NCBI GenBank assembly: GCA_003135635.1
Contig: PLCJ01000003.1
Coordinates: 53,087 to 117,086, forward strand
Reading direction: 5' to 3'
Length of the DNA stretch: 64,000 bases
Source: Candidatus Adlerbacteria bacterium
GTDB taxonomy: Bacteria; Patescibacteriota; Minisyncoccia; Phycocordibacterales; SBAW01
In this document: in pieces, positions 31,540-48,195 of the stretch
How the letters are laid out: each line of letters starts with the position of its first letter
How positions within the stretch are numbered: the stretch's first letter is position 1
Notes under the pieces: model-generated
Seen by the model: only the letters and a program-made list of their open reading frames with translations
Told to the model about the DNA's origin: nothing
Database searches by the model: none
Program-made: the position numbers and the translations under genes

Positions 31540-31611
31540 TCCGGCGTAGCTCAATGGTAGAGCAGCTCCCTGTTAAGGAGTTGGTTGTAGGTTCGAGTCC
31601 TACCGCCGGAG
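31540..31611 (+). tRNA. tRNA-Asn (anticodon GUU)
   Basis: Cloverleaf: acceptor UCCGGCG/CGCCGGA, D-arm GCUC-AAUGGUA-GAGC, anticodon stem GCUCC/GGAGU with loop CUGUUAA, T-arm GUAGG-UUCGAGU-CCUAC, discriminator G. Confidence 0.85.
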
Positions 31612-32913
31612 CAAGATAGGATTTTTTGAGTACAAATCATCCATATCCCTTGTGTTTGCTTTGTTTTCTACAGGTTCTAACTTTGCGTGAATAGCGCGGA
31701 CCTCAATTGCCATCGTTTGTATTGGGAATAACAGATTATCCCAGTCAATGCTCAACTTCCTGCCTTTTAAGATGAGGTCCGAACCTAGCGCGGCGAAAAT
31801 CTCTTTCCGAGTCTCAAGGTCGTTTCTTTTCTTTGCCTCGGCAAAAACAGCCATCCCCTTCTCTGCAAAGTTGAAACCGCGCTCGGCAATCTCAAGCCAG
31901 TTCTCCACACGCTTATCAGTATCCTTGAGGAGTTCTTGAAGTCGTCCCTTTTCAGCAAGGAGTGTTTGTTTTCTGCCCTTGAACTCCCCCTCTGTCAGCT
32001 CACCGTTGGCACGCATATCAATGAGGTTGTCTACCCTGCGCACACATGCCTCATATTCGCGCCTCTGTGCACCGTAGATACGGTCTCGGTCCGATACCTC
32101 TTGCGTGTTCATCTCACGAAGGCGTGCTAAAGCCCAGTTATTGAAATCAGTAGGTATCTCTATTGAGCCCAGCTCCTTTGCTATCTGTTTCTCAAGCTCC
32201 GCTTCCTCAATCGCTGGCTCTTTGCAGTTCGGGTTCCTGCGTTTGGTGCAATGATAGTAAGTGTAGTGGTGCGTGTTGCCGTTTTTCTGGTATTTCACTT
32301 TTTCCTCGGCAGTAACCATAGCGCCACATCCTCCACACTTGATAGGTCCGCGATACATAATCTCGTGCTTCTTTGGGTGCGGGTAGTTCTTTCGTCCAAT
32401 CAAAAACTGTATGCGGTCATACTCCTCGCGGGTAATCATCGGCTTGTGGATGCCCTTCATCGTGCTAAAGAGTTTCATATCCCGATACTTGTTTGTAGTC
32501 CACGCGGGCACGATGCTCCAAAAGTGGAGTTGTCCATTGTCGCCGATTTTACGGAGAATGACTTTGATTTTGCGCCCATCGGTGATAGCGATAATGCCCC
32601 AATACTTCACGGGCTTTGCTTTGAGTATTTTTTTCTTATGACTTTTGACCTCAAACTGTTTGATAGTTTCTTCGTATTCTTGATAGGTATTAGAGTGCCC
32701 TATGAGTTTTATGGCGCGTGGCAGGAGCTTGAAGCGTAGTATTTGTGATGGACGCTCTCGCTCACTCCGTGAACCTTTGAAAATGATGTGATTGAAACCC
32801 TCTGCTGTGAAATGCACATACTCGTTGAGTGCGGGCGACATAATAGGGCGGGTGGCGCTATAGAGTTTTTGAGCGTCCTCACGGAGTTTGTCGTAGTTAG
32901 AAAGGTCTTCCAT
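31600..32913 (-). CDS. Large-serine-recombinase-like protein (recombinase domain, Zn beta-ribbon, coiled coil) without recognisable resolvase catalytic domain
   Basis: ITREEYDRIQFLIGRK then GPIKCGGCGAMV...YTYYHC...C matches the LSR recombinase/zinc-ribbon region. Long C-terminal coiled coil. The N-terminal 150 aa lack the YxRVSxxxQ serine motif. The 3' end overlaps tRNA-Asn by 12 nt. Confidence 0.65.
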   Translation of the reverse strand: MEDLSNYDKLREDAQKLYSATRPIMSPALNEYVHFTAEGFNHIIFKGSRSERERPSQILRFKLLPRAIKLIGHSNTYQEYEETIKQFEVKSHKKKILKAKPVKYWGIIAITDGRKIKVILRKIGDNGQLHFWSIVPAWTTNKYRDMKLFSTMKGIHKPMITREEYDRIQFLIGRKNYPHPKKHEIMYRGPIKCGGCGAMVTAEEKVKYQKNGNTHHYTYYHCTKRRNPNCKEPAIEEAELEKQIAKELGSIEIPTDFNNWALARLREMNTQEVSDRDRIYGAQRREYEACVRRVDNLIDMRANGELTEGEFKGRKQTLLAEKGRLQELLKDTDKRVENWLEIAERGFNFAEKGMAVFAEAKKRNDLETRKEIFAALGSDLILKGRKLSIDWDNLLFPIQTMAIEVRAIHAKLEPVENKANTRDMDDLYSKNPILLRR

Positions 32914-32970
32914 AGCAAATAGTTTACACTACCCTGCCCCGTTATGGTTTGCACTTAAATACATAAACAA

Positions 32971-33399
32971 ATGCGCTATAATGCAGCAATGTATCGGGCA
33001 ACGAACCTTCAGAAAAAACTACTCTTTATTGCTCTCATAGCGTTTGTGATATTGAGCATGCCCGCTTCCGCTTCTCTAGCTATGCCCGTGGGCACAGACG
33101 GTCATATGTCAGGGTGTACCTTTATGAACGGCGGCTCAATCTGTACCATGGCTCCTTTGGAACACATAGCCGCTTGGCAAAGCATGTTCACCGCGGCGCA
33201 TCTCAAAGAAGCATCTCTTTTTCTCAACCTCATTCTAATCACTCTGTTCTCCGTCTTTCTTTTCTTACGACGTTTGGATACAAGTCAGCTTCAAAACAAA
33301 TCATTGTATACTCAACGTTTCAGATACCCTCGCTATTCAATTCGTAATGAATTACAAGAAGCGTTTTCTAGCGGCATTCTCCATCCCAAAGTTTTTTAG
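32971..33399 (+). CDS. hypothetical membrane protein
   Basis: Two hydrophobic segments. TATAAT promoter upstream. Confidence 0.45.
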   Translation: MRYNAAMYRATNLQKKLLFIALIAFVILSMPASASLAMPVGTDGHMSGCTFMNGGSICTMAPLEHIAAWQSMFTAAHLKEASLFLNLILITLFSVFLFLRRLDTSQLQNKSLYTQRFRYPRYSIRNELQEAFSSGILHPKVF

Positions 33400-33462
33400 A
33401 GCCGTATCAGAGCGTGTTGAATACCGCACGCAGTGTTTTTCTATTACCTAACTTTGTAACCT

Positions 33463-34182
33463 ATGGAACAAGAAACTAAAAAACTACAACTATCCCAGCC
33501 AGTCGCAATTATTATCGCAGGGGTCATCATAGCGGGAGCTGTCATCTGGAGCAGTGGTAACAGAAATGCTGCGCCAAATACAACTGGGAGTACCCAACAG
33601 CAGGGCTCTACCGTTGCTGTAGACAGCAGCAAAGTGAATATCCAAGGCGAGCCATTTATCGGCAATCCCAACGCTCCGCTTATCATCGCATACTGGTTTG
33701 ACTACCAGTGTCCGTTCTGTCAGCGCAATGAGGAGACCGCTATGCCGCAACTAATCAAGGACTATGTAGACACAGGCAAAGCAAAGCTCGTGTTCAAGGA
33801 TTACGAGTTCTTGGGCGATGACTCACAGACACTAGGACAATACGCCCGTGCAGTATGGGCAACAGCACCTGACAAGTTCTACCCGTGGCACAAAGCTATC
33901 TTTGACAATCAAGGTCAAGAGAATAGTGGCTGGGCAACACAGGCAAAAATCCTCTCCATCACAACAAGCGTACTTGGCGCTAGCGATACGGCTAAAGTAG
34001 TAGCTCTCGTAAAAACAAATGGGGCTGCTTACCAGAAAGTAATGGATGCAGATAAAGCCGAAGGTTCAGCAAACGGTGTTACAGGTACTCCAGGTATGGT
34101 CATAGGCAAGCATTTGGTTTCTGGTGCAATACCCTACGCTCAAATAAAGGCAACCATAGAAGCGGCTCTCAAAAACCAATAA
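33463..34182 (+). CDS. DsbA-family thiol:disulfide oxidoreductase (membrane-anchored)
   Basis: N-terminal TM. Thioredoxin fold with CPFC active site. Confidence 0.8.
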   Translation: MEQETKKLQLSQPVAIIIAGVIIAGAVIWSSGNRNAAPNTTGSTQQQGSTVAVDSSKVNIQGEPFIGNPNAPLIIAYWFDYQCPFCQRNEETAMPQLIKDYVDTGKAKLVFKDYEFLGDDSQTLGQYARAVWATAPDKFYPWHKAIFDNQGQENSGWATQAKILSITTSVLGASDTAKVVALVKTNGAAYQKVMDADKAEGSANGVTGTPGMVIGKHLVSGAIPYAQIKATIEAALKNQ

Positions 34183-34184
34183 GT

Positions 34185-34853
34185 ATGCAAAAGAAAACAT
34201 ACACTCCGCTGCTTATCCTAGCGGGCGCACTCCTCATAAGCGGCTTTATTGTTACCAAATCCAGCATCGTACCCAAAGCAAATGCACAGCTCACTGCTAC
34301 ATATAACAGTATTCCAACTGTGAGCGGTAAGGTGCTGTTCATGCAACAGAGCCAAAATCTAACACAGAGCGTTGACCCCGCGCTTGTTGATTTGGACTCC
34401 CAGCTCATTACTTGCAGTCCCAATGTAGATAGTTTGCTTACAGCTAAGCCTATGCTTGGAGGAAGCTGTCTGGCAGGAGATAGTACACTCGGCACAACAA
34501 CGGGCATGTTTTTAGGCGGTCAGTGCTGTGGGTCAATGAAAAATCTAACGGACTATAACACTGAACTTCAAAACCTTCAGCAATACAAAGACATTCCTGA
34601 TTTGCCAATGAACCCATACAAAACGCCCGTGGCTCTTGCGAAGAAATGGATTGACTACGACAAGGCAACTAACCTCACACCTTCAGAACAAGCAACTATG
34701 GACCAAGCAATGCATATGTCAAAAGAAGGTCCATGTTGCTGCAAATGTTGGCACTACTTCGTCAATGAAGGTATCGCAAAGAAAATGATAAAGGATTACC
34801 ACTACAGCGCTCAACAAGTTGCGGCATACTGGGATACTTCAAGTATCTGCTAA
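34185..34853 (+). CDS. hypothetical Cys-rich secreted protein
   Basis: Signal anchor. 13 Cys including CCGS and CCCKC clusters. Confidence 0.6.
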   Translation: MQKKTYTPLLILAGALLISGFIVTKSSIVPKANAQLTATYNSIPTVSGKVLFMQQSQNLTQSVDPALVDLDSQLITCSPNVDSLLTAKPMLGGSCLAGDSTLGTTTGMFLGGQCCGSMKNLTDYNTELQNLQQYKDIPDLPMNPYKTPVALAKKWIDYDKATNLTPSEQATMDQAMHMSKEGPCCCKCWHYFVNEGIAKKMIKDYHYSAQQVAAYWDTSSIC

Positions 34854-34856
34854 CCT

Positions 34857-35483
34857 ATGCGTATGTATATCTGCCCAATGCACCCAGAGGTTCGGCAAGA
34901 CAAGCCTGGTCGTTGTCCTAAATGCGGCATGGCTCTTGTAGATGAGAGCACGTACCAAGCTAAACCCGTTATTGCTGACAAGGGACTTGGGCAGATTACA
35001 TGGCGCAGTTACATACCACTGGCTGTCATTGGGATGCTATTACTGCTCTCTACTCTCGCTGTATCGGTACACCAGTATCTTTTGGGAAGTTTCTTACCCG
35101 CAAATGCCATATCCTACTTTATGGCGGGTTTTTTCATTGTGTTTGCGGGTTTCAAACTTATGGACTTGAAAGGGTTTGCGGAAGGGTACTCAACGTACGA
35201 CTTACTGGCAGGACGCTGGTTTCGCTACGGCTATGTTTATCCGTTTATTGAGCTTGGATTTGGTATGGCTATGCTCGCAGGAATAGTGAACCCCTCCCTT
35301 TTGTGGGCAGAGTTGATAGTAATGTTGTTCAGCGGTATAGGTGTTGCAATCAAACTGGCAAAAGGCGAGAAGTTTCAGTGCGCCTGTCTTGGAACTTTTC
35401 TCAAAGTACCCCTTACAAAAATCACACTCATTGAGGATTTCGGTATGGCACTACTCGCACTAGCACTTCTGCTCATAGGTTGA
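34857..35483 (+). CDS. Heavy-metal-binding domain fused to MauE/DoxX-like membrane oxidoreductase domain
   Basis: N-terminal YICPMHPE...PGRCPKCGMAL. 4-TM body with C-terminal CAC motif (FQCACLG), as in the MauE family. Confidence 0.7.
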   Translation: MRMYICPMHPEVRQDKPGRCPKCGMALVDESTYQAKPVIADKGLGQITWRSYIPLAVIGMLLLLSTLAVSVHQYLLGSFLPANAISYFMAGFFIVFAGFKLMDLKGFAEGYSTYDLLAGRWFRYGYVYPFIELGFGMAMLAGIVNPSLLWAELIVMLFSGIGVAIKLAKGEKFQCACLGTFLKVPLTKITLIEDFGMALLALALLLIG

Positions 35484-35737
35484 AAAACGTATCGGTATTT
35501 ATGCAAGCAGTTTTGGTGAGGGATTTGCCCAACAACTTCAAGTGTGTCTTGTTTTATTATCCTGCCGCATTTAGCGCAAACATAGAGATTTTTCCAGCCG
35601 CTGCCCTTGTCTGGAGAAACCTCGTCTCCTTTTTCATCGCAAGGATAAAAGCCGTCGCTTGTGGGAGTGTTATTGCAGAGACAAATCCACGCCTCCTCAT
35701 TTCCAGCTTCGTGAGTAATGTACTCTTTTTGGTCCAT
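35375..35737 (-). CDS. hypothetical small zinc-ribbon protein
   Basis: CLC...C...CAKCG cysteine pairs. Overlaps the 3' end of the convergent gene by about 100 nt, which lowers confidence. Confidence 0.35.
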   Translation of the reverse strand: MDQKEYITHEAGNEEAWICLCNNTPTSDGFYPCDEKGDEVSPDKGSGWKNLYVCAKCGRIIKQDTLEVVGQIPHQNCLHKYRYVFQPMSRSASASSAIPKSSMSVIFVRGTLRKVPRQAH

Positions 35738-35785
35738 AATTGAATTATACGCCCAGAGCAAATGCAGGACAACGAAAGAAAAATG

Positions 35786-35843
35786 CGCTTTTACCCTCTA
35801 TCAAACAGGTTCTAACACAGTCCAGTTCGCGGAGCTAAAAAAG
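35786..35843 (+). repeat. Composite island element, copy D (TTTTACCCTCTATC, core)
   Basis: cttttaccctctatcaaacaGGTTCTAACAcagtCCAgttcGCGGAGCtAAAAaag. Confidence 0.7.
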
Positions 35844-36437: not shown

Positions 36438-36536
36438 CCCCGATGAGACTTCGTTCTCAACGGGGTTTCATTGTTTTTATACCCTCACTTCCCTTCCGAG
36501 ACTGGTTCTAACATCCTCCAGGGCGGGGAGCAAAAT
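36438..36536 (+). repeat. Composite island element, copy E (hairpin, T-run, ATACCCTCAC, core)
   Basis: ccccgatgagacttcgttctcaacggggtttcattgtttttataccctcacttcccttccgagactGGTTCTAACATCCTCCAgggcggggagcaaaat. Confidence 0.85.
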
Positions 36537-36552
36537 AGGTCAAGTTCGGAAC

Positions 36553-36561
36553 TGATATGAT
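36553..36561 (+). promoter_or_regulatory. extended -10 promoter (TGaTATGAT), probably producing a leaderless mRNA
   Basis: TGnTATGAT lies 7 nt upstream of the ATG at 36569. There is no SD. Confidence 0.4.
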
Positions 36562-36568
36562 AAGTCAC

Positions 36569-37009
36569 ATGAATCCATCGCTCAAACAACTGGAGCCATT
36601 GGTTGGTAAATGGGTCATGGAATTGTCCAATGCTTCCTTTCTTCCTGATCATTCTACCACTGTACGAGGAACCACTTCCTGCGAATGGATTGAGGGGGGT
36701 GATTTTTTAGCTGTGCGCCAAGGAGCCAAGGGAGCAGGAACTCCCTATTCTGTATGGCTTATTGGTCGTGACAAAGCATCTTCCGAGTATACTGCTCTTT
36801 ATTTTGACGACCGTGGAGTCTCAAGGGTATATAGAATGAGTTTTAAGAGCGGAATCTGGAAACTCTGGCGGGTCACACCTAAATTCTCGCAACGCTTCGA
36901 GGGCAAACTAAGCAAAGACAAAAAGACCATTAAAGCTCAATGGGAGAAAAAGTTTGGAAGCAAAAAGTGGGAACACGATTTCGACCTAACTTATAGCAAG
37001 CGTAAATAG
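36569..37009 (+). CDS. hypothetical protein (beta-rich, possibly lipocalin/DUF1579-like)
   Basis: 146 aa. Start set at MNPSLKQ downstream of the extended -10. Confidence 0.55.
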   Translation: MNPSLKQLEPLVGKWVMELSNASFLPDHSTTVRGTTSCEWIEGGDFLAVRQGAKGAGTPYSVWLIGRDKASSEYTALYFDDRGVSRVYRMSFKSGIWKLWRVTPKFSQRFEGKLSKDKKTIKAQWEKKFGSKKWEHDFDLTYSKRK

Positions 37010-37042
37010 CTTCTAACATTCTCCAAGGTACGGAGCAAAAAG
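37008..37042 (+). repeat. Composite island element, copy F (core only, abuts the stop codon)
   Basis: agCTTCTAACATtCTCCAaggtacGGAGCAAAAag. Confidence 0.8.
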
Positions 37043-37069
37043 CAGTAGATTACGTGTTACACTAAATCC

Positions 37070-37180: not shown

Positions 37181-37186
37181 TTAGGC

Positions 37187-37224
37187 TGGTTCTAACATCC
37201 TCCAAGGTGCGGAGCTATTTTTTA
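37187..37224 (+). repeat. Composite island element, copy G (core)
   Basis: ctGGTTCTAACATCCTCCAaggtgcGGAGCtatttttt. Confidence 0.85.
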
Positions 37225-37306
37225 TGCCTTATTTTCAATGGGATTTTTGATACCCCAATTGGACATCAGAACTTTTAATTGGCAATCTCAGTGCTAGGAT
37301 ATACAT

Positions 37307-37489
37307 ATGAACAAGCGACCGCTGTATGTGTACGTAATCGGAGTTGTTGTTGTGTGGGCGATTATTCTCACACTCTCATGGTTTGGAGTCATCTGGAAAC
37401 CCTTCAATGAAGTTGTCACAGTATGTGCGGGCTTCGCCCTCGGGATGCTCGCGATGTATATCGCCGTACACCTGTATAGGTGGAAATAA
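37307..37489 (+). CDS. small membrane protein (2 TM, 60 aa)
   Basis: Two hydrophobic helices (VYVIGVVVVWAIILTL, VCAGFALGMLAMYIAV). Confidence 0.5.
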   Translation: MNKRPLYVYVIGVVVVWAIILTLSWFGVIWKPFNEVVTVCAGFALGMLAMYIAVHLYRWK

Positions 37490-37521
37490 TCTAGCGGACA
37501 ACTCCTGCCCGCAGAGGACAA

Positions 37522-37530
37522 TGGTATAAT
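37522..37530 (+). promoter_or_regulatory. extended -10 promoter (TGgTATAAT), leaderless candidate
   Basis: atgGTATAAT lies 9 nt upstream of the ATG at 37540. Same architecture as at 48602-48610. Confidence 0.4.
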
Positions 37531-37539
37531 AACGACATC

Positions 37540-37719
37540 ATGGACAAATGGCGCTCGACATACGTCAAGCTAGTAGTACTTGAACTTGTACTAAGTGTGG
37601 TGTTCTTTGCACTCGGGCATTACATTGGGAACGCTTATTTTCGTGGCGTAGGTGTCGGCTTGTTAATCGCTTGGGTCACGGGCGCCTTAGCTTATTTTAT
37701 TGTGAAGAGAAGAGTTTGA
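37540..37719 (+). CDS. small membrane protein (2 TM, 59 aa; absent from the ORF track, which omits ORFs under 60 aa)
   Basis: MDKWRSTYVKLVVLELVLSVVFFALGHYIGNAYFRGVGVGLLIAWVTGALAYFIVKRRV. Confidence 0.45.
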   Translation: MDKWRSTYVKLVVLELVLSVVFFALGHYIGNAYFRGVGVGLLIAWVTGALAYFIVKRRV

Positions 37720-37776
37720 ATGTTTGTTTACACAAACCCCAACATTTGAATTTCTTTCGCTAGCGTTGCCCAATCC

Positions 37777-37812
37777 AGAGTTCTGAACGTGTCCAACGAG
37801 TGGAGCAACTAC
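37777..37812 (+). repeat. Composite island element, copy P (degenerate core), immediately followed by TTGACT
   Basis: agaGTTCTgAACgTgTCCAacgagtGGAGCAActac. Confidence 0.5.
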
Positions 37813-38111: not shown

Positions 38112-38121
38112 CCAAGCCGTT

Positions 38122-38201
38122 CACCAGCAAGCCGCCTGGAGGACGGTTTTGCTTTTTATATCTTCAGGCTAGTCCTCACATCCTCCAGAGTGGGCTATAC
38201 C
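38122..38201 (+). repeat. Composite island element, copy H (type I hairpin identical to copy C, then diverged core)
   Basis: accagcaagccgcctGGAGGAcggttttgctttttatatcttcaggctagtcctcACATCCTCCAgagtgggc. Confidence 0.8.
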
Positions 38202-38559
38202 AAATGAAAGGGCCTACGATTGCTCGTGGGCTCAGTTGGGAAGATCGATTTTGAAGTGTTATCGAACTTTTCAGCTCTAGTCTTGAATGAGATGCTGCAA
38301 CCTTTGATACGGATTACTCCGCTTCTCTAGTATTCACAAGTCATTGTTTGACCACTTCTGCCTCGCCGGCACCAACCCGATGTTTAAGCCAGCTACCTGT
38401 TAAGATTTCCGGCTCACCCATCTTGCGTGGCGCGACGACAAAGAACTATCTGGCTTCCTCTATACTAAACATATAGATGTGGATATAGGTGGTCAAGCAT
38501 CATATATAAGAATATCGCTGAATAAGCTGTGCACAATATGTGCAGAAGTGGCATAAAAC

Positions 38560-38646
38560 GGTGGATAGTGCATCCGAGACTTTTTTTATTACTTTGGCAA
38601 GGGGCTAAGATAGGTTCTAACATCTTCCACGAGGGGAGCAAAATGC
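38560..38646 (+). repeat. Composite island element, copy I (weak hairpin, T-run, core)
   Basis: gagactttttttattactttggcaaggggctaagataGGTTCTAACATCtTCCAcgaggggagcaaaatgc. Confidence 0.8.
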
Positions 38647-39459: not shown

Positions 39460-39502
39460 TGCGTTTATGTAGGTTCGAACATCCTTCATGAGGGAGAGTT
39501 CG
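39422..39502 (+). repeat. Composite island element, copy J (terminator, T-run, core closest to the tRNA-Asn 3' end)
   Basis: tgtAGGTTCGAacatCCTtCAtgaGGGAGAG shares the 10-mer GTAGGTTCGA with the tRNA-Asn T-arm. Confidence 0.8.
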
Positions 39503-39704
39503 TTGTCTCACCTCACTCTAGTGGAGATACATATAAAAATCGAAAGGACCGTGTTCGAGAGAAGGGTGCGAACACCACAACCTATCGAACACGGCCTTGT
39601 CTTTGCTACAACCTCCGAGCGCCAACGCGTTCATTTTTAAGGTCAACAACAGTCAACTTAGAAACTTCGGGAAGCTTGATCGATACCAACTATGGGTCAT
39701 GTCA

Positions 39705-40841: not shown

Positions 40842-40927
40842 GAGACCTCGCAGCAATTTTGCGGGGTCTCTTTTTTTTTATACAATCAAACTGTTTTGAA
40901 CATCCTCAAGGGTGCGGAGCAATAAAC
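40842..40927 (+). repeat. Composite island element, copy K (terminator, T-run, ATACAATCAAAC, core)
   Basis: gagacctcgcagcaattttgcggggtctcttttttttatacaatcaaactgTTTTGAACATCCTCAAgggtgcGGAGCAAtaaac. Confidence 0.8.
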
Positions 40928-41386: not shown

Positions 41387-41422
41387 GGGTTCTGGTACCT
41401 TCCACGAGGAGGAACAAAAAGG
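41387..41422 (+). repeat. Composite island element, copy L (degenerate core)
   Basis: gGGTTCTggtACcTtCCAcgaggagGAaCAAAAagg. Confidence 0.5.
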
Positions 41423-42163: not shown

Positions 42164-42247
42164 GACACCTCCTTTCTTTTTTTAATGTTCAGTAGCTGGC
42201 AGAACTATGTGAGATAGCGCCACAGAAGTCAAACTTTGTAATGAAAA

Positions 42248-42285
42248 TAGGTTCGAACATCCTCCACGAAGGGAGCAAACAAAAT
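42248..42285 (+). repeat. Composite island element, copy M (core)
   Basis: tAGGTTCgAACATCCTCCAcgaagGGAGCAAAcaaaat. Confidence 0.85.
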
Positions 42286-42716: not shown

Positions 42717-42792
42717 CTCCGCCTTGTGCGGAGTTTTCCTTATTATACAATCACCGACTTTCTTCATCATCCGCTTAAGCGAAGAGTGCACC
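42717..42792 (+). repeat. Composite island element, copy Q (type III hairpin, ATACAATCACC, degenerate core)
   Basis: ctccgccttgtgcggagttttccttattatacaatcaccgactttcTTCatCATCCgCttAAGcGaaGAGtgcAcc. Confidence 0.5.
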
Positions 42793-42846
42793 TCTCCCCA
42801 CTCCAATCTCTACCGTCTGACCTTTTATTGCCCCTGCCAACCAAGG

Positions 42847-42855
42847 TTGTATAAT
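42847..42855 (+). promoter_or_regulatory. extended -10 promoter TTGTATAAT for the surface-protein gene
   Basis: TGTATAAT lies 37 nt upstream of the ATG at 42892. Confidence 0.45.
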
Positions 42856-42891
42856 TATTGACACCATTTAATATCATTAATAATAAGAGCT

Positions 42892-44124
42892 ATGGATACA
42901 CAACCATCTGGTAATTATCATCGAAGCATGTGGCCGAGTGGAGCAAAATACACGATTATCACAAGAATTGTTATCGGTGCGATAGTTATAGTGTTTTTAA
43001 TCGTGGTTGGCGTTGTTATTATCGGCATGAGGAATAATTCGTCCTTCAACATCAATCCCGGCTCAGGGAAAGAGGGAACCGAGATCACGATCGTGTATCC
43101 AAAGGCACCGTCTTCCCTTTCCGGTTCAGCAACTGTAAAGTTCTATGATGCTGGTGAGCATGGCTGGTATATGGTTAGTGGCGGCGCCGCAGTTTATGTC
43201 GCCTACGATTCAACCAAGGGTTTGACCTATAGCGCTCCAGCTACGGCTACAGGCTCTAACAACAATGGCGCGAGCTACACGGCAACCGTCCCTCAGGGGA
43301 TTTGCGGATTCATAATTCAATCTGATCAGGCAACACCCGCTCCGCCAAAGGTGCTTGATGTCTCCATAGCAGGGCCTGACGGCACGCCGATCCCGGGGAC
43401 ACATCCGACAAAGTTTAATCTGATATGCGATAAATATACGCTGAAGGCGAAAATCACAGCTAATCCCGACAAGGTTCTGCCGGACGGTGCCAGCCAGTCA
43501 ACCATAACTGCAAACTTGAGCGTGACGGGGCCGGCTCAAGTTGTTATCGGCCAGAAAATTACAAAACCTACTCAACCAATTATTCTAGTGTCACCGCTTG
43601 GTTTGGTGATGGTCCACTTCAATACCAGCCTCGGTACGATTGCGCCGAATCCAGCCAATGTTAAGACCGATTTAAGTGGAGATGCCGTTGTGACTCTTAC
43701 CTCGATGGATGCGGGCATAGCCAAGGTTCAGGCGGTTGCTTCAGGCATCGGAGACGCCATTGCTAATGTTTATTTTGAGCCAAAGATCACCGGCGTCCAG
43801 GAAAATTTCGTCCAGCCAAACAGCCCGACCAATTATCAGATATCCACAATTCCCGCGAATCCAAAGGATCTTACTTTCGATTGGGAGATCATTCGTCCTG
43901 CCGGGCCCGTCTGCGGGAGTCTCACCGGCCCCGCAAGCGGCTTGGGTGAATCAATGAACGGTTTCTTCCATGGACTGACTTCCGATTTTCCGAACGGCTG
44001 CGACGAAACTTATGAATTCGCCACTCAGATCAAAGTCACAGTCACCGACAAGGATGGACAAAGTGATAGTAAAACTTTCTCAGCGAGAGCTCTCGAGGGA
44101 CAGGGCGTGGTCAAGTTGCCGTAG
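42892..44124 (+). CDS. membrane-anchored surface protein with bacterial Ig-like (Big) domains
   Basis: N-terminal TM. Repeated beta-sandwich segments (DGASQSTITANLSVTG, LSGDAVVTLTSMDAGIAKVQAV). Confidence 0.65.
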   Translation: MDTQPSGNYHRSMWPSGAKYTIITRIVIGAIVIVFLIVVGVVIIGMRNNSSFNINPGSGKEGTEITIVYPKAPSSLSGSATVKFYDAGEHGWYMVSGGAAVYVAYDSTKGLTYSAPATATGSNNNGASYTATVPQGICGFIIQSDQATPAPPKVLDVSIAGPDGTPIPGTHPTKFNLICDKYTLKAKITANPDKVLPDGASQSTITANLSVTGPAQVVIGQKITKPTQPIILVSPLGLVMVHFNTSLGTIAPNPANVKTDLSGDAVVTLTSMDAGIAKVQAVASGIGDAIANVYFEPKITGVQENFVQPNSPTNYQISTIPANPKDLTFDWEIIRPAGPVCGSLTGPASGLGESMNGFFHGLTSDFPNGCDETYEFATQIKVTVTDKDGQSDSKTFSARALEGQGVVKLP

Positions 44125-44211
44125 AAGTCAAAAACGAGTTTGAAAGTCGCCCCATCGGAAACAGATATAAAGAAGACGCCGCTCTTTTCAGAACGGCGCT
44201 TGTGCTGCGGT

Positions 44212-44598
44212 TTAACACGCAAGTAAGCTTCTCATCCGATTTATTGTTAGACAGGCCGTTGTGGCTTCTTCGCATGTGGCCGCAAGTTTCTGCAGTCCAG
44301 AAGAATCATCATTGTGCGGTAATGCAGTTTCCACAACATTTACGATGAGCTCATGAAGACCACCAGGCATCGGATGGCTAAGAAGTTCGGAAAGGTGTCT
44401 GTGTGCCTGTTCGGCTCTCTGGCGCTGACCCGCAACAAAGAGGATGTATTTTCTGGAACCTGAATGCTGAGTCGGGTCGGCGTTGAGACAGAAGTACCGT
44501 ATGGCCGAAAGGTCTCGGGCCGCTTGTTGAATGCTCTGGCGCTGATTTCCTTCAGGGAATGAAGGCACAGTTTCGGTCCTCCTTTCAAGTGAAACCAT
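44212..44598 (-). CDS. hypothetical protein (doubtful)
   Basis: ORF in a GC-rich patch, no family. Alternative frames overlap it. Confidence 0.3.
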   Translation of the reverse strand: MVSLERRTETVPSFPEGNQRQSIQQAARDLSAIRYFCLNADPTQHSGSRKYILFVAGQRQRAEQAHRHLSELLSHPMPGGLHELIVNVVETALPHNDDSSGLQKLAATCEEATTACLTINRMRSLLAC

Positions 44599-44687
44599 TC
44601 CTACAATACCTAAAATTTTAAGGATGTCTACAACTGAAGTTTGGGTCGCAAAACACCATCTATCAAAATATAATTTCGGTGGTCTGC

Positions 44688-44975
44688 TTAGTAGTGAATC
44701 GTCGTAGTGGTACTTGTGACAGTACCACTGGTACTGTTTGGAACAGCGGTGGATCCACTACTTGGAACGTTTACTTGAATCGTGCTGGCGGGAGTTGAAT
44801 TATTCCCGACCCTGTAAAAACCAAACCATGCTATAAAACCTACAACCAGCAGCACTAGCAAGACGACGATGACAGTTAACGCTGAACCAGAGTCATTGCC
44901 ACCTCCTGTGTTATTAATTTCTGTAACCATACTATTGGATAGAGTAAATTCTAATAATAATTGGACCTTAGACAA
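44688..44975 (-). CDS. small membrane protein (1 TM, S/T-rich tail)
   Basis: TM ALTVIVVLLVLLVVGFIAWFGF. Confidence 0.45.
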   Translation of the reverse strand: MSKVQLLLEFTLSNSMVTEINNTGGGNDSGSALTVIVVLLVLLVVGFIAWFGFYRVGNNSTPASTIQVNVPSSGSTAVPNSTSGTVTSTTTTIHY

Positions 44976-45189
44976 GCCTTAAACCTCCAAGGAGCATGAG
45001 AACACCTACGATAATTGCCACAACTGCTACGACCATTGCTAAGGTGCGACTTGGAAAGAAGAAATGAATACCATACCCCAGAAAGAAAATGATTTCGCAC
45101 AATGTAAGTAAAGACATGGTTTGGTAGATTACTAATAATTTAGGAACTGCATCATGAATACGTTTTAGATTATGACAATAAAAAAACAA
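44968..45189 (-). CDS. small membrane protein (2 TM)
   Basis: Hydrophobic helices. Adjacent to the preceding small membrane gene. Confidence 0.4.
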   Translation of the reverse strand: MFFYCHNLKRIHDAVPKLLVIYQTMSLLTLCEIIFFLGYGIHFFFPSRTLAMVVAVVAIIVGVLMLLGGLRLV

Positions 45190-45431
45190 AAAAGCAAGGA
45201 AATCCTGTTGATATTAAAACTGACTCCAGTTCAAGATGTAGCGGTCTTTTTTTGTCCAACCAGCTTCCCTATCTCATCTATCACCCGCCCCGGTGAAGTA
45301 TATACTTCTTCCCACGCAGTAGTTTGAAAGTTGCTCCATAAGGAAGGGCGACATTTGATATTTTGTTACATTGTGTTATACTATTTGTAGTATCGTTCTA
45401 AAGAAAACTCTACGGAAGGACGTAAACAACC

Positions 45432-45668
45432 ATGGCGAGCAAGGAAGCTTCCCAGAGTATCCACCTCCTAGGCCTTGTTTCTGGTGCCGTCATCAATGGC
45501 AAGCGTTTCCATATGACAACCAAAGACCGTAAGATTGCGGAGCGAGAGGCCCAAGCCCTGGGTGGCGTTGTCCGAGACTACGGAGTCGACCTGAAGAGGA
45601 TCAATCCCAGTACACTGGAGGCAATAGACTGGGAGAAAACGAAAGGGTTCTCTGTTTGGCTCGATTAG
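45432..45668 (+). CDS. hypothetical small protein
   Basis: RBS ggaagga. 78 aa. Confidence 0.5.
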   Translation: MASKEASQSIHLLGLVSGAVINGKRFHMTTKDRKIAEREAQALGGVVRDYGVDLKRINPSTLEAIDWEKTKGFSVWLD

Positions 45669-45676
45669 ACTCCAAA

Positions 45677-45762
45677 CCGCCCAAGGAAGACCTCCTTCGG
45701 GCGGTCTTCTTTTTATTTGATTAAATAGGTTCAAACACCGTTTATGGCGGGAAGCGAAACAG
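45677..45762 (+). repeat. Composite island element, copy N (type II hairpin, T-run, degenerate core)
   Basis: ccgcccaaggaagacctccttcgggcggtcttctttttatttgattaaatAGGTTCaAACAcCgTttAtggcgggaagcgaaacag. Confidence 0.55.
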
Positions 45763-45874
45763 TCAAAAAAAGATTTAAATATCTGACCTTAATGTAGAGA
45801 ATTATAATTTGAGAAAATTTTGTTATACTGAATAGGATGTGTTTATCTAATCACCATTTTAACAAAATAATTTT

Positions 45875-46234
45875 ATGATAAGAAATATTGCATTTAGTGT
45901 GTATGCCGTAACAGATATGCTAAGGGCCAGAGCCTTTTATGAAGGTATGCTTGGATTAACACCGAGCCCTGAATACGACGGGAGCAAAAATCAAAACTGG
46001 GTTGAGTACAATATAGGAGCGGGCACTCTATCCATAGGATCCTCGCCAGATTGGAAACCATCAGAAGACGGAGCGGTGGTAGCTCTGGAGGTTGATAATT
46101 TTCATGAGTTTGTTGGGCAATTAAAAACTCACAATGTTTCTTTTAAACTTGAGCCACAGCAGTACCCAACCTGCGACATGGCGGTCATAGAAGATCCAGA
46201 TAAAAACAAGATTCTTATTCATCACAAAAAATAG
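45875..46234 (+). CDS. VOC/glyoxalase-bleomycin resistance family protein
   Basis: Paired beta-alpha-beta-beta-beta modules. 119 aa. Confidence 0.75.
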   Translation: MIRNIAFSVYAVTDMLRARAFYEGMLGLTPSPEYDGSKNQNWVEYNIGAGTLSIGSSPDWKPSEDGAVVALEVDNFHEFVGQLKTHNVSFKLEPQQYPTCDMAVIEDPDKNKILIHHKK

Positions 46235-46253
46235 TTTTGCTTAAAAACTACGT

Positions 46254-46721
46254 ATGGACAAGGGTACATGGATTGGAATTACATTGTTATGTATTCTGAC
46301 TTTAGGTCTTGTATATCTTATGGAACAAGTTCAAAACAATAACGGAAGTTCACAATCTGCGACATCCGCTCCAAGTGTCTCAACTCAAACAACAACTAAT
46401 AATACTTCGCAAACTACAAATACGACTGGCTTAGATTGTCAAACAATTGCAAATGAAGCAGCACAAAATAATCAGACAAAACAAGGCCAAACCACCACAG
46501 TGATACAGGCCCATTTAAATCAATCGCTGAATCAATGTTATTACGAACTGAATATTTTTACCGCGTCGGGTGATGAAACAGATATTAGAGTTGCACCCAA
46601 CGACACGATAGTGGCATATTGCATCACCATACCCTCAGGACTATCCTGTCAGAAACCTGGAGTTGGAGCTATAACGGAGCCGCAATTTAAACAGTTCTTA
46701 AAAAGCTATTTTACAAACTAA
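46254..46721 (+). CDS. hypothetical membrane-anchored S/T/N/Q-rich protein
   Basis: N-terminal TM, low-complexity linker, C-terminal Cys-containing domain. Confidence 0.55.
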   Translation: MDKGTWIGITLLCILTLGLVYLMEQVQNNNGSSQSATSAPSVSTQTTTNNTSQTTNTTGLDCQTIANEAAQNNQTKQGQTTTVIQAHLNQSLNQCYYELNIFTASGDETDIRVAPNDTIVAYCITIPSGLSCQKPGVGAITEPQFKQFLKSYFTN

Positions 46722-46761
46722 CTGACCCAGTAGAACGACTTGGTTTATAGAACTTCTTATC

Positions 46762-48126
46762 ATGAAGAACGCTTTAGAAAAATTCGTCGGTGAACCAGCA
46801 ATCCTAATGGAAAAAGGGATTGAGAAAGCTAAAAAACTAGAGGAGGAACTTATAAGTAAAAAACCCTTTAAACTTGCTGAAGAATACTGGGATACTTTAG
46901 GTCCTGGACTCACAACAGGAGCAGCAGATGATGATCCATCTGGAATCGCTACGTACTCTCAAACCGGTGCGCAATATGGATTCCAGTTGCTCTGGCTTGC
47001 AGCGTTTACTTTTCCACTCATGGCAGTTGTCCAGGAAATGTGTGCTCGCATCGGAGTCGTCACTGGGAGAGGTCTTGCTGCAAATATTAAACACCATTAT
47101 TCACGCCCCATATTGTATGTCACAACGATATTATTATTTGCCGCTAATACATTTAACATTGGTGCTGACTTAGGTGCTATGGCTCAAGGTGTGCGCTTAT
47201 TTGCTCCGAATTTCGCTCTCCCCTTCTTAATCATTGCTTTTGCATGTATCAGTTTGCTCTTACAAATCTTCACCACCTACGTCCGCTACGCGAAGTATTT
47301 GAAGTATTTGACACTAGTTTTGTTCGCGTATGTTTTCTCTGCTCTTTTGAGTCATTTGAACTGGACACAGGTCGCCGTTCACTCTATTGTGCCGTCGATA
47401 AGTTTTAACAAGGAACAAATTTATCTCATTTGCGCTATTTTAGGAACCACAATTTCTCCATATCTATTTTTTTGGCAAACTTCTCAGGAAGTCGAGGAAC
47501 AAAATTTGCAAATGCACAATACGGAAGCAGGATGGCATCAACATCCGGCTAAAAAAGATGTGCGCAATCTAAGAACCGATGTGTGGACAGGGATGTTTTT
47601 CTCCAATCTCATCATGTTCTTCATTATCGCTGCCTGCGCAGGGACACTGTTCGTACATGGTATTACTAACATCGCTACAGCTGCAGATGCAGCAACAGCA
47701 TTGCGGCCACTTGCTGGAGATGCCGCATATTTTCTCTTTGGAATTGGAATCATCGGAACTGGCATGCTTGCTATACCAGTATTAGCTGGTTCAACTTCAT
47801 ATGCCATATCCGAGAGTTTCGGCTGGAAGCATGGTCTCTATCGCAAACTTAAAGAAGCGTACGCATTTTATGGTGTCATCATCATTTCGATGTTACTTGG
47901 TATTATTATGAACTTTATAGGTCTAGATCCAATCAAGGCGCTCATTTATTCGGCGGTGGGCAATGCTTTGGTAGCTCCCGTTGTGCTTGTGTTTATTGTT
48001 CGCATGAGCAGTAACAAAAAAATTATGGAAGAGTACGTTAATCATCGGGCCGTAACTTGGGCGGGATGGTTTGTTACGGGAATTATGCTGATTTCTGGAA
48101 TAGCAGCTATCGTATCCCTTTTTTAA
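46762..48126 (+). CDS. mntH: NRAMP-family divalent metal (Mn2+/Fe2+) transporter
   Basis: GPG...DPSGIATYSQTGAQYGFQLLW matches the Nramp consensus. 11-12 TM. Confidence 0.85.
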   Translation: MKNALEKFVGEPAILMEKGIEKAKKLEEELISKKPFKLAEEYWDTLGPGLTTGAADDDPSGIATYSQTGAQYGFQLLWLAAFTFPLMAVVQEMCARIGVVTGRGLAANIKHHYSRPILYVTTILLFAANTFNIGADLGAMAQGVRLFAPNFALPFLIIAFACISLLLQIFTTYVRYAKYLKYLTLVLFAYVFSALLSHLNWTQVAVHSIVPSISFNKEQIYLICAILGTTISPYLFFWQTSQEVEEQNLQMHNTEAGWHQHPAKKDVRNLRTDVWTGMFFSNLIMFFIIAACAGTLFVHGITNIATAADAATALRPLAGDAAYFLFGIGIIGTGMLAIPVLAGSTSYAISESFGWKHGLYRKLKEAYAFYGVIIISMLLGIIMNFIGLDPIKALIYSAVGNALVAPVVLVFIVRMSSNKKIMEEYVNHRAVTWAGWFVTGIMLISGIAAIVSLF

Positions 48127-48170
48127 TGCGACTATTAAAGAGGGTTCATACCCCCATCTAGTCTGCGTGT

Positions 48171-48195
48171 ATAGGAGGTTCGAGTCCCATCGCTG
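48171..48195 (+). other. tRNA-Asn 3'-end-like fragment (possible distal att repeat of island 2)
   Basis: ataggAGGTTCGAGTCCcAtCGCtg against the tRNA-Asn tail gtAGGTTCGAGTCCtAcCGCcgg: 12-nt exact match plus flanking similarity, with a 3-nt insertion. Does not fold as a T-arm. Confidence 0.35.

What the first reader, a model, noticed from the sequence alone, without database searches (positions are those of the whole stretch)
31540..48195. Element core resembles the tRNA-Asn 3' end; island 2 is bounded by tRNA-Asn and a degenerate 3'-end copy, with a recombinase-like gene overlapping the tRNA
The tRNA-Asn 3' end reads GTAGGTTCGAGTCCTACCGCCGGAGCA. It aligns with the core GGTTCTAACATCCTCCAAGGCGGGGAGCAAAA through shared GGTTC, TCCT(A/C)CC, GC(C/G)GGAGCA blocks. 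Copy J shares the exact 10-mer GTAGGTTCGA with the tRNA-Asn T-arm. A 12-nt exact match, AGGTTCGAGTCC plus CATCGC vs TACCGC, lies at 48171-48195 as a non-folding fragment, consistent with an attR-type direct repeat 16.6 kb from the tRNA. The only recombinase-like gene in the window (31600-32913) ends 12 nt inside the tRNA 3' end, the classic position of an integrase next to attL. This suggests integration at tRNA-Asn. More speculatively, the cassette-boundary elements may be tRNA-end-derived recombination sites used by that recombinase, that is, a serine-recombinase-type cassette-accretion system rather than a tyrosine-recombinase integron.
Basis: partly seen in the sequence, partly recalled or inferred. 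Interest (0 to 1): 0.8.

Follow-up and report, generated by a model that had tools for sequence, protein, structure and literature searches.

The report
Serine-recombinase cassette array at tRNA-Asn
Next to the tRNA-Asn gene of this Patescibacteria (CPR) chromosome lies a dead copy of a serine integrase followed by about a dozen small gene cassettes, each ending in an integrase attachment-site arm, which suggests that a serine recombinase, rather than the tyrosine recombinase of integrons, stacked gene cassettes at a tRNA gene.

Summary
tRNA-Asn(GTT) lies at 31540-31612. ORF 31600-32913(-) ends 13 nt inside it. The 12-mer sits at 48176-48187.

Two readings are wrong. The ORF keeps only the C-terminal 285 aa of a large serine recombinase (LSR); the catalytic part is replaced by 152 unrelated aa. 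The proposed attR at 48171-48195 is not the island boundary.

The speculative idea fares better. Intact relatives of this LSR abut the 3' end of tRNA-Asn or tRNA-Gln in at least 10 loci. The repeated core reads GGTTC-N7-STCC-N9-AGC; the tRNA tail reads GGTTC-N2-GTCC-N9-AGC. That 5-bp outward shift is the published attP versus attB half-site geometry of serine integrases. In at least 12 relatives the LSR ORF reads across this arm (LDEVRT tail), so attP lies inside the gene's 3' end.

The first core (35808), read antisense, encodes the severed tail of the window's own LSR. So 31600-35839 is one LSR unit with attL in the tRNA. Cores from 36504 to 48575 bound about 12 older LSR-less cassettes. One recurs at 90.5% identity in a distant genome, with homology fading inside both flanking cores. 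Five genomes show a tRNA-Asn followed by a core array.

How the array was built is inferred, not shown.

The parts
31540..31612 (+). tRNA-Asn(GTT). Its tail GGTTC(31590-94)-GA-GTCC-TACCGCCGG-AGC is the attB-type left arm. CGGAGC (31607-31612) is the overlap shared with attR.
31600..32457 (-). Remnant of a large serine recombinase gene: zinc ribbon, coiled coil and C-terminus, corresponding to aa 251-535 of intact homologues. The stop codon lies in the tRNA T-stem. Together with the tRNA tail this forms attL.
   Evidence: DNA homology to all relatives stops sharply at 32457.
32458..32913 (-). 152 codons unrelated to any recombinase, fused in frame. They replace the catalytic Ser domain and most of the recombinase domain.
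32971..35483 (+). Cargo of the LSR unit: a 142-aa ORF, a DsbA-like thioredoxin, a 222-aa ORF and an HMBD/MauE membrane protein. There are no cores inside.
35745..35834 (-). Severed C-terminal tail of the LSR ORF: LRELDCVRTCLIEGKSAFFFRCPAFALGV*. It was left at attR when integration split the gene.
   Evidence: (E=0.009 to the P0046 tail)
35808..35839 (+). Core of the LSR subtype, GGTTCTAACACAGTCCAGTTCGCGGAGC. It is the attR of the LSR unit: an attP-type P arm plus the former tRNA-proximal flank.
   Evidence: The same subtype occurs at L087 1113 and L146 11611.
36504..36535 (+). Core (attP-type arm): GGTTC-N7-CTCC-N9-AGC.
37009..37040 (+). Core.
37188..37810 (+). Mobile cassette with two small membrane-protein genes of about 60 aa, spanning core 37188 to the degenerate core at 37779-37810. 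It is 90.5% identical to L087 1113-494.
38171..38202 (+). Degenerate core.
38613..38644 (+). Core (N8 variant).
39472..39503 (+). Core 'copy J'. It shares TGTAGGTTCGA with the tRNA.
40893..40924 (+). Core.
41388..41419 (+). Degenerate core.
42250..42281 (+). Core (N8 variant).
45728..45759 (+). Degenerate core.
48176..48187 (+). 12-mer AGGTTCGAGTCC with tRNA-type (N2) spacing but no CGGAGC. It is not the island boundary and its status is unexplained.
48544..48575 (+). Last core of the array, and the best match to the consensus. The right end of island 2 lies at or beyond this point.
13476..15366 (+). Second array (island 1, between mraZ and lysS) with cores at 13476, 14798 and 15335. There is no tRNA or LSR nearby.

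Best explanation
The region is a tRNA-Asn integration hotspot used by a Patescibacteria family of large serine recombinases (LSRs).

Shown or strongly supported:
1. The family integrates so that the last four codons and the stop of the LSR gene lie in the tRNA acceptor and T-stem.
2. In the unintegrated (attP) state the LSR ORF continues across the crossover into a conserved tail (...LLR-x-LDEVRT...GKS.F.Y). The antisense of that tail is the core's left arm, GGTTCTAAC.TC.TCCAG. attP therefore lies inside the 3' end of the gene.
3. In this window, integration split the gene. The body sits at the tRNA (attL, 31600-32457). The 29-codon tail sits 4.2 kb away at core 35808 (attR). The crossover lies within the shared CGGAGC.
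4. That LSR later lost its catalytic half and is dead.
5. The other cores share the attP-type geometry: the GGTTC motif is 5 bp further from the centre than in the tRNA. At least one of the LSR-less cassettes they bound is shared with a distant genome, with homology fading inside both flanking cores.

Inferred: the array grew by successive LSR-catalysed insertions at the tRNA tail, with the newest unit nearest the tRNA. LSR-less cassettes carrying an attP-type site were served in trans. This requires that the tRNA-side junction stays usable as a target after each insertion.
For: LSR family and tRNA:
- There are 681 homologues, mostly 530-570 aa with Resolvase, Recombinase and Zn_ribbon domains.
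- The LSR 3' end overlaps tRNA-Asn in L003, L004, L005, L008, L087, L089, L090 and L092. It overlaps tRNA-Gln in L093, L094 and L143-145.
- L089 and L090 carry an identical LSR in different hosts. Their DNA is identical through the gene into the tRNA and first differs in the T-loop. The crossover therefore lies 3' of the T-loop.

Geometry:
- All six tRNA tails tested read GGTTC-N2-(G/A)TCC-N9-AGC.
- Eleven window cores match the pattern (A/G)NTT(C/T)-N7-(G/C/T)T(C/T)N-N8/9-AGC, most as GGTTC-N7-(G/C)TCC-N9-AGC.
- Rutherford et al. 2013 report the ZD motif shifted 5 bp toward the centre in attB relative to attP, with the RD site unchanged (PMC3783163).

attP inside the gene:
- Twelve of 24 homologues inspected carry LR-x-L(D/N)(E/D)VRT tails.
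- In L146 the DNA shows the LSR's normal 3' end joined to the core's left arm. tRNA-Gln lies 6.3 kb further on, with no LSR in between.

Severed tails:
- Window 35834-35745 reads LRELDCVRTCLIEGKSAFFFRCPAFALGV*. tblastn to the P0046 tail gives E=0.009, the best hit outside the LSR gene.
- The L087 core reads LRALDEVRTLLLEGKSVFSYNFAN*, 10.5 kb from an intact LSR.

Cassette mobility:
- Window 37188-37806 matches L087 at 90.5% over 622 nt. The LSR gene DNA of the two genomes is 71% identical and their HisRS proteins 24%.
- Identity is low in the left core's P arm, high from CGGAGCTATT onward, and lost after GTCCAAC in the right core.

Association with tRNA-Asn:
- L126 and L135 were retrieved by the core pattern alone. 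Each has tRNA-Asn 600-700 nt upstream on the same strand.
- L040 has three cores downstream of tRNA-Asn and no LSR.
Against: - No recombination was observed, so everything rests on sequence.
- Canonical serine integrases recombine only attP with attB. Repeated insertion at a tRNA junction that is already a hybrid site, and service of LSR-less cassettes in trans, are not established for this family.
- The right arms of the cores are variable, and I did not show them to be P'- or B'-type.
- Island 1 (13.4-15.4 kb) has cores without any tRNA or LSR.
- Several LSR loci (L003, L004, L089, L093) show no core within 10 kb.
- No recombinase lies near the arrays in L126 or L135.
- The shared cassette encodes a widely conserved small protein that is 82-86% identical at the DNA level in other genomes. 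Part of the 90.5% identity therefore reflects selection rather than transfer.
- GGTTCTAAC codes for VRT in the LSR tail, so some of its conservation could be a protein constraint.
- L126 and L135 also hold tRNA-tail fragments that break in the T-loop, which this model does not produce.
Confidence: 0.7

Rival explanations
1. The cores are scars of many complete LSR elements. Each integrated at the tRNA with its own recombinase and later lost it by deletion. No LSR-less cassettes are captured.
For: - Both LSR copies seen in related islands are decaying: the window's and the IS-truncated copy in L004.
- The right arm of the last core (48572 AGCAAGATATTGATTTTTT) faintly resembles an LSR 3' end.
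Against: - Units are 0.18-3.5 kb, mostly too small to have held a 1.6-kb LSR gene.
- tblastn finds no LSR remnant anywhere in 35.9-49 kb.
- The 0.6-kb two-gene cassette recurs with the same core-internal boundaries in a different context in L087.
- In L146 a 6.3-kb LSR-less unit sits between the tRNA and an intact LSR.
Confidence: 0.15
2. The cores are RNA-level elements: a promoter plus a conserved 5' leader, or a small RNA whose anti-SD CCUCC pairs with the GGAG Shine-Dalgarno sequence. They are unrelated to recombination.
For: - Cores lie in intergenic DNA, often 20-110 nt upstream of + strand ORFs.
- A TAnnnT box and a T-run precede many of them, and a CUCC/GGAG hairpin is possible.
- In several metagenome loci the core is followed by a terminator.
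Against: - No Rfam family matches.
- Folds are no better than shuffles, with z from -1.1 to +0.5.
- All copies are on one strand whatever the orientation of the neighbouring gene.
- The upstream 'conserved RNA' region reads antisense as the LSR tail.
- The idea does not explain the link to tRNA-Asn or the cassette boundaries.
Confidence: 0.05
3. The array is an integron or CALIN whose attC-like sites are used by a tyrosine recombinase encoded elsewhere.
For: - The array consists of co-oriented small cassettes with no local integrase.
- TTCTAAC resembles the RYYYAAC box.
Against: - No GTTRRRY partner and no R''/L''/L'/R' palindrome lies downstream of any core.
- The upstream hairpins are ordinary terminators of unrelated sequence.
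- No tyrosine recombinase lies in the window or near the other arrays.
- The sites match serine-integrase geometry and LSR coding sequence instead.
Confidence: 0.03
4. One reading: a single 16.6-kb island bounded by tRNA-Asn and a degenerate copy of the tRNA 3' end at 48171-48195.
For: - There is a 12-nt exact match, 16 of 18 with extension.
- TTCGAGTCCCAT recurs once, in the analogous island of L146.
Against: - A single 12-mer is expected by chance.
- The match covers the T-stem and T-loop rather than the acceptor end, where the crossover lies.
- A further core lies 350 nt beyond it, at 48544.
- The severed LSR tail places attR at 35808.
Confidence: 0.04

Closest known systems
Staphylococcal cassette chromosome (SCC/SCCmec) elements and their composite islands, moved by the Ccr large serine recombinases
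   Same: - A serine recombinase integrates elements at the 3' end of a conserved housekeeping gene.
- Tandem or nested arrays form with internal att sites.
- Units flanked by att sites but lacking a recombinase exist.
   Different: - The target here is tRNA-Asn/Gln, not rlmH.
- Units are mostly single-gene cassettes of 0.2-3.5 kb, which is integron scale, rather than 20-60-kb elements.
- attP lies inside the recombinase gene.
- The host is Patescibacteria.
- Orthology to Ccr was not tested.
Phage-type large serine integrases (A118/LI, Bxb1, phiC31) and their attP/attB sites
   Same: - The domain set of intact relatives matches (Resolvase, Recombinase, zinc ribbon, coiled coil).
- The same motif sits 5 bp further out in the attP-type arm than in the attB-type arm, with the inner motif fixed.
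- The identity shared between attL and attR is very short (CGGAGC).
   Different: - Canonical enzymes allow only attP x attB and leave inert attL and attR sites.
- Here about a dozen attP-type arms are stacked beside one attB-type arm, which implies repeated use of the same junction.
Integrons (IntI tyrosine recombinase, attI, attC cassettes)
   Same: - The function looks the same: an array of co-oriented, mostly single-gene, promoter-poor cassettes.
- The cassettes are separated by recombination sites next to one primary site and a recombinase gene.
   Different: - There is no IntI and no attC fold or boxes.
- The chemistry would be serine, not tyrosine.
- The primary site is a tRNA tail.
tRNA-targeting genomic islands and accretion of cis-mobilisable elements (tyrosine integrases; Islander-type islands)
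   Same: - The tRNA gene is kept intact by element-borne sequence.
- The recombinase gene lies next to the tRNA.
- Tandem accretion occurs at one tRNA.
   Different: - Those islands are bounded by direct repeats of 15-50 nt of the tRNA 3' end.
- Here attL and attR share 6 nt, and the distal site is an attP-type arm.
Integration-dependent gene truncation in cluster G mycobacteriophages, where attP lies inside the repressor gene (from my own knowledge: Broussard et al. 2013; not checked here)
   Same: attP lies inside a coding sequence, so integration changes the C-terminus of the protein.
   Different: Here the split gene is the recombinase itself. No regulatory consequence has been shown.

Membership tests
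Large serine recombinase (the ORF 31600-32913) | N-terminal resolvase-type catalytic domain with the serine nucleophile (PF00239) | tested here: not met
   Pfam finds no Resolvase domain. The alignment to P0001 covers only aa 153-437 of the ORF, which correspond to aa 251-535 of the enzyme. The N-terminal 152 aa match no family.
Large serine recombinase (the ORF 31600-32913) | Recombinase domain (PF07508) | tested here: not met
   There is no PF07508 hit. Homology starts at aa 251 of a 535-aa enzyme.
Large serine recombinase (the ORF 31600-32913) | Zinc-ribbon domain plus the coiled-coil and C-terminal region | tested here: met
   PF13408 hits at E=4.3e-8. Identity to P0001 is 84% over 285 aa. 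phrog_95 (integrase) hits at E=3.5e-20.
Serine-integrase attachment sites (cores as attP-type arms, tRNA tail as attB-type arm) | The same distal (ZD) motif lies 5 bp further from the centre in attP than in attB, with the proximal (RD) motif at a fixed distance | tested here: met
   GGTTC-N2-GTCC-N9-AGC is found in 6 tRNA tails. A relaxed GGTTC-N7-STCC-N8/9-AGC pattern matches 11 window cores. The rule comes from PMC3783163. This is sequence geometry only.
Serine-integrase attachment sites | attL and attR share only a short crossover overlap and are hybrids of attP and attB arms | tested here: met
   attL reads ...CCTACCGC-CGGAGC-AAGATAGG and attR reads ...GTCCAGTTCG-CGGAGC-TAAAAAAG. The LSR ORF is split in frame between them.
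Serine-integrase attachment sites | The cognate enzyme recombines the sites | not testable with these tools
   This needs an in vitro or in vivo assay.
tRNA-integrated genomic island (classical) | Direct repeat of the tRNA 3' end (15 nt or more) at the distal boundary | tested here: not met
   The best + strand match is the 12-mer at 48176, which is at chance level and covers the wrong part of the tRNA. No such repeat lies within 10 kb in seven LSR loci.
tRNA-integrated genomic island (classical) | Intact tRNA with the integrase gene adjacent | tested here: met
   The arrangement is conserved in at least 10 loci.
Integron / CALIN | IntI-type tyrosine recombinase | tested here: not met
   None is found in the window or near the arrays in L126 and L135. 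The rest of the genome was not seen.
Integron / CALIN | attC sites with R''/L''/L'/R' boxes and a folded bottom strand | tested here: not met
   No GTTRRRY partner lies within 200 nt of 14 of the 15 cores; the one hit, 180 nt from 13476, is not a partner. The hairpins are terminators of unrelated sequence.
SCC-like composite island | Tandem units separated by internal att sites at the 3' end of one conserved gene, including units that lack a recombinase | tested here: met
   window; L146. The definition is as used.
SCC-like composite island | Ccr-family recombinase and rlmH target | tested here: not met
   The target is tRNA-Asn, so the rlmH criterion fails. Ccr orthology was not examined.

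The most novel reading that the evidence does not exclude
Patescibacteria carry a serine-recombinase counterpart of the integron. A resident large serine recombinase next to tRNA-Asn (or tRNA-Gln) captures recombinase-less, mostly single-gene cassettes that carry a roughly 50-bp attP-type site. It stacks them at the tRNA tail because the tRNA-side junction stays competent after each insertion. The enzyme's own C-terminal tail is switched by integration, because attP lies inside its gene.
Probability: 0.4. Interest if true: 0.85.

Novelty: new variant of a known kind. Interest (0 to 1): 0.75.

Why it matters
- Integrons are the only well-characterised system that builds arrays of single-gene cassettes, and they depend on a tyrosine recombinase and folded attC sites.
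- A serine-recombinase route to the same outcome, in the small, host-dependent genomes of the Candidate Phyla Radiation, would be an independent solution to modular gene acquisition.
- It would explain variable islands next to tRNA-Asn/Gln in these genomes.
- Serine integrases are valued genome-engineering tools because they are strictly attP x attB. A natural family that reuses one junction repeatedly, with attP embedded in its own gene, would bear on how directionality is controlled.
- The site grammar GGTTC-N2/N7-STCC-N9-AGC is directly testable.

Tried and rejected
- Crossover in the anticodon loop. L003 seemed to hold only the 3' half of tRNA-Asn next to the LSR. The 5' half lies about 255 nt further on, so this is an intron-like insertion, not an att junction.
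- Direct repeats of the tRNA tail within 10 kb of seven LSR loci. None was found.
- LSR relatives in viral contigs, to read a free attP. A single-protein query found nothing. The alignment query found only a shorter subfamily of about 36% identity without the C-terminal region.
- Empty tRNA-Asn site in relatives. Loci syntenic for fmt/hpf have tRNA-Asn, but the downstream genes are not conserved, so the right boundary could not be fixed.
- Canonical attC boxes. They are absent.
- Known RNA family or stable fold. Neither was found.
- Protein-coding explanation of the core in metagenome hits. This is true only for the high-GC contigs, which are chance or coding matches. The low-GC hits are non-coding on the sense strand.
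- Identity of the 152-aa N-terminus. No family matched. I ran no further search on it.
- A second ungapped copy of the LSR 3' end at 48572. None is found at up to 3 mismatches. The resemblance needs a gap and is weak.

Full report
**1. What is in the window**

The window is chromosomal DNA of a Patescibacteria (Paceibacteria-like) bacterium.
- The same sequence occurs in a 340-kb ENA contig.
- The nearest species representatives share 61-67% Fmt identity and are labelled Paceibacterota or Adlerbacteria.
- Housekeeping genes surround the region. mreB, murA, def, fmt and hpf lie to the left of tRNA-Asn. nth, zwf, truB and hisS lie to the right of 48.9 kb.
- tRNA-Asn(GTT) is at 31540-31612.
- ORF 31600-32913(-) ends with LLRR and a stop codon. 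These are the reverse complement of the acceptor 3' strand and of CTA in the T-stem.

**2. The 'recombinase'**

- Pfam sees only the recombinase zinc ribbon.
- The 681 homologues are mostly large serine recombinases (LSRs) of 530-570 aa with Resolvase, Recombinase and Zn_ribbon domains.
- The window protein aligns to them only over aa 153-437, which correspond to aa 251-535 of P0001, at 84% identity.
- At the DNA level, homology to every relative stops sharply at 32457.
- The first 152 aa match nothing.
- The gene is therefore a catalytically dead chimera.

**3. The family always sits on a tRNA tail**

- Intact relatives overlap the 3' end of tRNA-Asn in L003, L008, L087, L089, L090 and L092.
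- A copy truncated by an IS3-family element does the same in L004 and L005.
- A branch at about 60% identity overlaps tRNA-Gln(CTG) in L093, L094 and L143-145.
- L089 and L090 encode the identical LSR in different hosts. Their DNA is identical through the gene and into the tRNA, and first differs in the T-loop. The crossover therefore lies 3' of the T-loop.
- These results support 'integration at tRNA-Asn'.

**4. The proposed attR at 48171-48195**

- The 12-mer is real, but one 12-mer match to the tRNA is expected by chance. The mean is 0.34 per simulated window.
- Three matches are observed, and two of them are antisense and lie inside ORFs.
- The match extends only to 16 of 18 nt, and Rfam finds no tRNA fragment there.
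- The 12-mer covers the T-stem and T-loop, not the acceptor end where the crossover lies.
- A further core lies beyond it, at 48544.
- One oddity remains. TTCGAGTCCCAT occurs only here and in the analogous island of L146, across 1.9 Mb of fetched DNA.

**5. What the cores are**

- About 15 copies lie in the window, all on the + strand, in two islands.
- Many follow an ordinary terminator hairpin and a T-run.
- They are not attC sites. They are not a known or stably folded RNA.
With flanks, the copies score well above random sets and above a tRNA-Glu control.

The resemblance has a precise form.
- Six tRNA tails read GGTTC-N2-(G/A)TCC-N9-AGC.
- Most scorable cores read GGTTC-N7-(G/C)TCC-N9-AGC. 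Two have N8, and a few have one-base variants.
- The distal motif is therefore displaced outward by exactly 5 bp while the proximal motif keeps its distance.
- Rutherford et al. 2013 established this relation between attP and attB half-sites of serine integrases. The zinc-ribbon motif is shifted by 5 bp and the recombinase-domain site is unchanged (PMC3783163).

**6. attP lies inside the LSR gene**

- Twelve of 24 homologues inspected do not stop at LLR. They continue as LR-x-L(D/N)(E/D)VRT-..L.GKS.F.Y....
- LDEVRT is the antisense translation of GGTTCTAACTTCGTCCAG, which is the core's left arm.
- L146 shows this at the DNA level. The usual 3' end of the LSR gene is joined to CCAATAAAACGGTTCTAACTTCGTCCAG.
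- In L146, tRNA-Gln lies 6.3 kb further on, with nine non-recombinase genes in between.
- Other homologues read antisense through a whole tRNA, giving GDRDSNPD...SYH ends. These are integrated copies without an in-frame stop.

**7. The window's LSR unit**

- Read antisense, core 35808 and the 75 nt upstream of it give LRELDCVRTCLIEGKSAFFFRCPAFALGV*.
- tblastn with tailed LSRs finds this stretch as the best hit outside the gene. P0046 gives 50% identity over 22 aa (E=0.009). P0078 gives 57% over 21 aa.
- The frame joins ...NPILLR at the tRNA to ELDCVRT... through the shared CGGAGC.
- Integration therefore split the gene. attL is in the tRNA, attR is core 35808-35839, and the unit spans 31600-35839. 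It carries a DsbA-like gene and an HMBD/MauE gene.
- L087 shows the same layout in working order. An intact LSR sits at tRNA-Asn. A core 10.5 kb away reads LRALDEVRTLLLEGKSVFSYNFAN*.
- The three cores that flank LSR units share the subtype GGTTCTAAC...GTCCAGT.

**8. The array beyond 35.8 kb**

- Cores between 36504 and 48544 bound units of 0.18-3.5 kb. These encode DUF1579, a GH5 fragment, a Big_1 protein, a glyoxalase, Nramp and small unknown proteins.
- No LSR remnant is present in the array.
- The antisense tails of these cores are short, for example LEDVRTSLST*.
- One unit, 37188-37806, carries two membrane-protein genes of about 60 aa. It is 90.5% identical over 622 nt to L087 1113-494. 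The LSR gene DNA of the two genomes is 71% identical and their HisRS proteins 24%.
- In that alignment, identity is poor in the left core's GGTTC...CCA part, high from CGGAGCTATT onward, and lost after GTCCAAC in the right core. This is what a crossover between STCC-N5 and GGAGC would leave.
- A caveat applies. The small protein is widely conserved, and its coding DNA is 82-86% identical in other genomes that lack cores. The non-coding identity and the boundaries carry the argument.
- Because core 35808 joins the LSR unit's P arm to the left end of the next cassette, the LSR unit must have integrated into a tRNA junction that was already occupied.

**9. Independent link to tRNA-Asn**

- A metagenome scan with the core pattern alone returned 26 loci.
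- About 14 are non-coding and share GCGGAGC(C/A)A beyond the searched pattern.
- ARAGORN was run on 13 of these loci. The only tRNAs it found are tRNA-Asn(GTT), 600-700 nt upstream of the core on the same strand, in L126 and L135.
- L040 has three cores downstream of tRNA-Asn and no LSR. L142 has an array with a GGTTCYAACATCGTCC variant.
- In several single-copy loci the core is followed by a terminator, as a virgin tRNA flank would be. The 70 nt upstream read antisense as LR(I/V)VEDVRT plus 20-25 aa, which looks like a second tail subfamily.

**10. What remains inferred**

- The order of events and the use of the occupied junction as a target are inferred.
- Service of LSR-less cassettes in trans is also inferred.
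- Several observations do not fit. Island 1 (13.4-15.4 kb, between mraZ and lysS) has cores without a tRNA. Some LSR loci have no core within reach. L126 and L135 contain tRNA-tail fragments that break in the T-loop, which suggests that other recombinases also use this hotspot.

**11. Comparison and verdict**

- The closest known system is the SCC family. There, Ccr serine recombinases integrate at the 3' end of rlmH and build composite tandem islands that include recombinase-less units.
- In function, the array resembles an integron. It fails every structural test for one.
- I rate it a new variant of a known kind. It is interesting for its cassette scale, its tRNA target, its attP inside the recombinase gene, and its host lineage.

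Noticed in passing
L003 11596-11923; L012 13425-13785: tRNA-Asn genes are split at anticodon-loop position 34/35 by insertions of about 255 nt and about 307 nt. They look like group-I-type tRNA introns. ARAGORN misses these genes.
   Followed up: partly
window 31672-31680 (also L143 11530-11539, L089 11524-11538): The motif GGTTCTAAC also occurs inside the LSR gene, about 60-75 nt from the tRNA end. It lies on the tRNA-sense strand and encodes the conserved (R/K)LEP motif. It is a direct copy of the core's distal motif, not an inverted one, and I could not explain it.
   Followed up: no
window 48179-48190; L146 17921: TTCGAGTCCCAT occurs only at these two places in 1.9 Mb of fetched DNA. Both are on the tRNA-sense strand inside LSR/tRNA-associated islands.
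   Followed up: partly
L126 6165-6625: Three copies of the tRNA-Asn tail are interrupted between GGTT and CGAATCC by GC-rich, hairpin-rich inserts of 55-90 nt that begin TCCGCGAC. A further core (7027) has a 37-nt insert between CCTCC and GCGGAGCC. These may be miniature insertions or scars of another recombinase.
   Followed up: no
L135 8340-8365 and 7465-7480 (- strand): Partial tRNA-Asn tails (GCGAGTCCTACCCGCGGAGCCAG and CCTACCCGCGGAG) are preceded by a repeated CGACYGAAGGGAGAGG. The serine-integrase model does not predict these.
   Followed up: no
window 13100-16560: Island 1, between mraZ and lysS, has cores at 13476, 14798 and 15335 and degenerate copies near 15900 and 16530. It has no tRNA or recombinase. 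Its origin (translocation or a pseudo-site) is unknown.
   Followed up: partly
window 13109-13150, 15279-15320, 38116-38157: A 42-nt terminator region (GCCRTTCACCAGCAAGCCGCCTGGAGGACGGTTTTG) is repeated at three cassette ends, with up to 95% identity. Its 3' arm, CCTGGAGGA, is complementary to the core's TCCTCCAGG.
   Followed up: no
window 37307-37489 and 37540-37719: The roughly 60-aa membrane protein of the mobile cassette belongs to a very widespread, highly conserved Patescibacteria family with 178 clusters. In other genomes it sits just upstream of a P-type cation ATPase (L137, L138).
   Followed up: partly
LSR homologues P0021, P0048, P0050, P0054, P0063, P0081, P0105: The called proteins end in ...GDRDSNPD...SYH. 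This is the antisense translation of a whole tRNA (T-arm GGGTTCGAATCCC), so the annotated C-termini are read-through into the target tRNA.
   Followed up: partly
window 48572-48592: The right arm of the last core (AGCAAGATATTGATTTTTTAA) resembles the 3' end of the LSR gene at the tRNA (AGCAAGATAGGATTTTTTGA), with one gap. It could be the last trace of an older LSR unit at the far end of the array, but the evidence is weak.
   Followed up: partly
L004 8851-12386: In a 993-kb relative with the same murA-def-fmt-hpf synteny, the LSR at tRNA-Asn is truncated at its 5' end by an IS3-family element, and another rve transposase lies between the tRNA and hpf. This is a second, independent inactivation of the recombinase.
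   Followed up: partly
L147 11758-19554: An LSR with the attP-state tail (LNEIRT) is followed by a type I restriction-modification system with an SduA_C gene. Other intact units carry a methylase with a ResIII helicase and, in L087, a SocA_Panacea gene. Defence genes seem to be common cargo.
   Followed up: no
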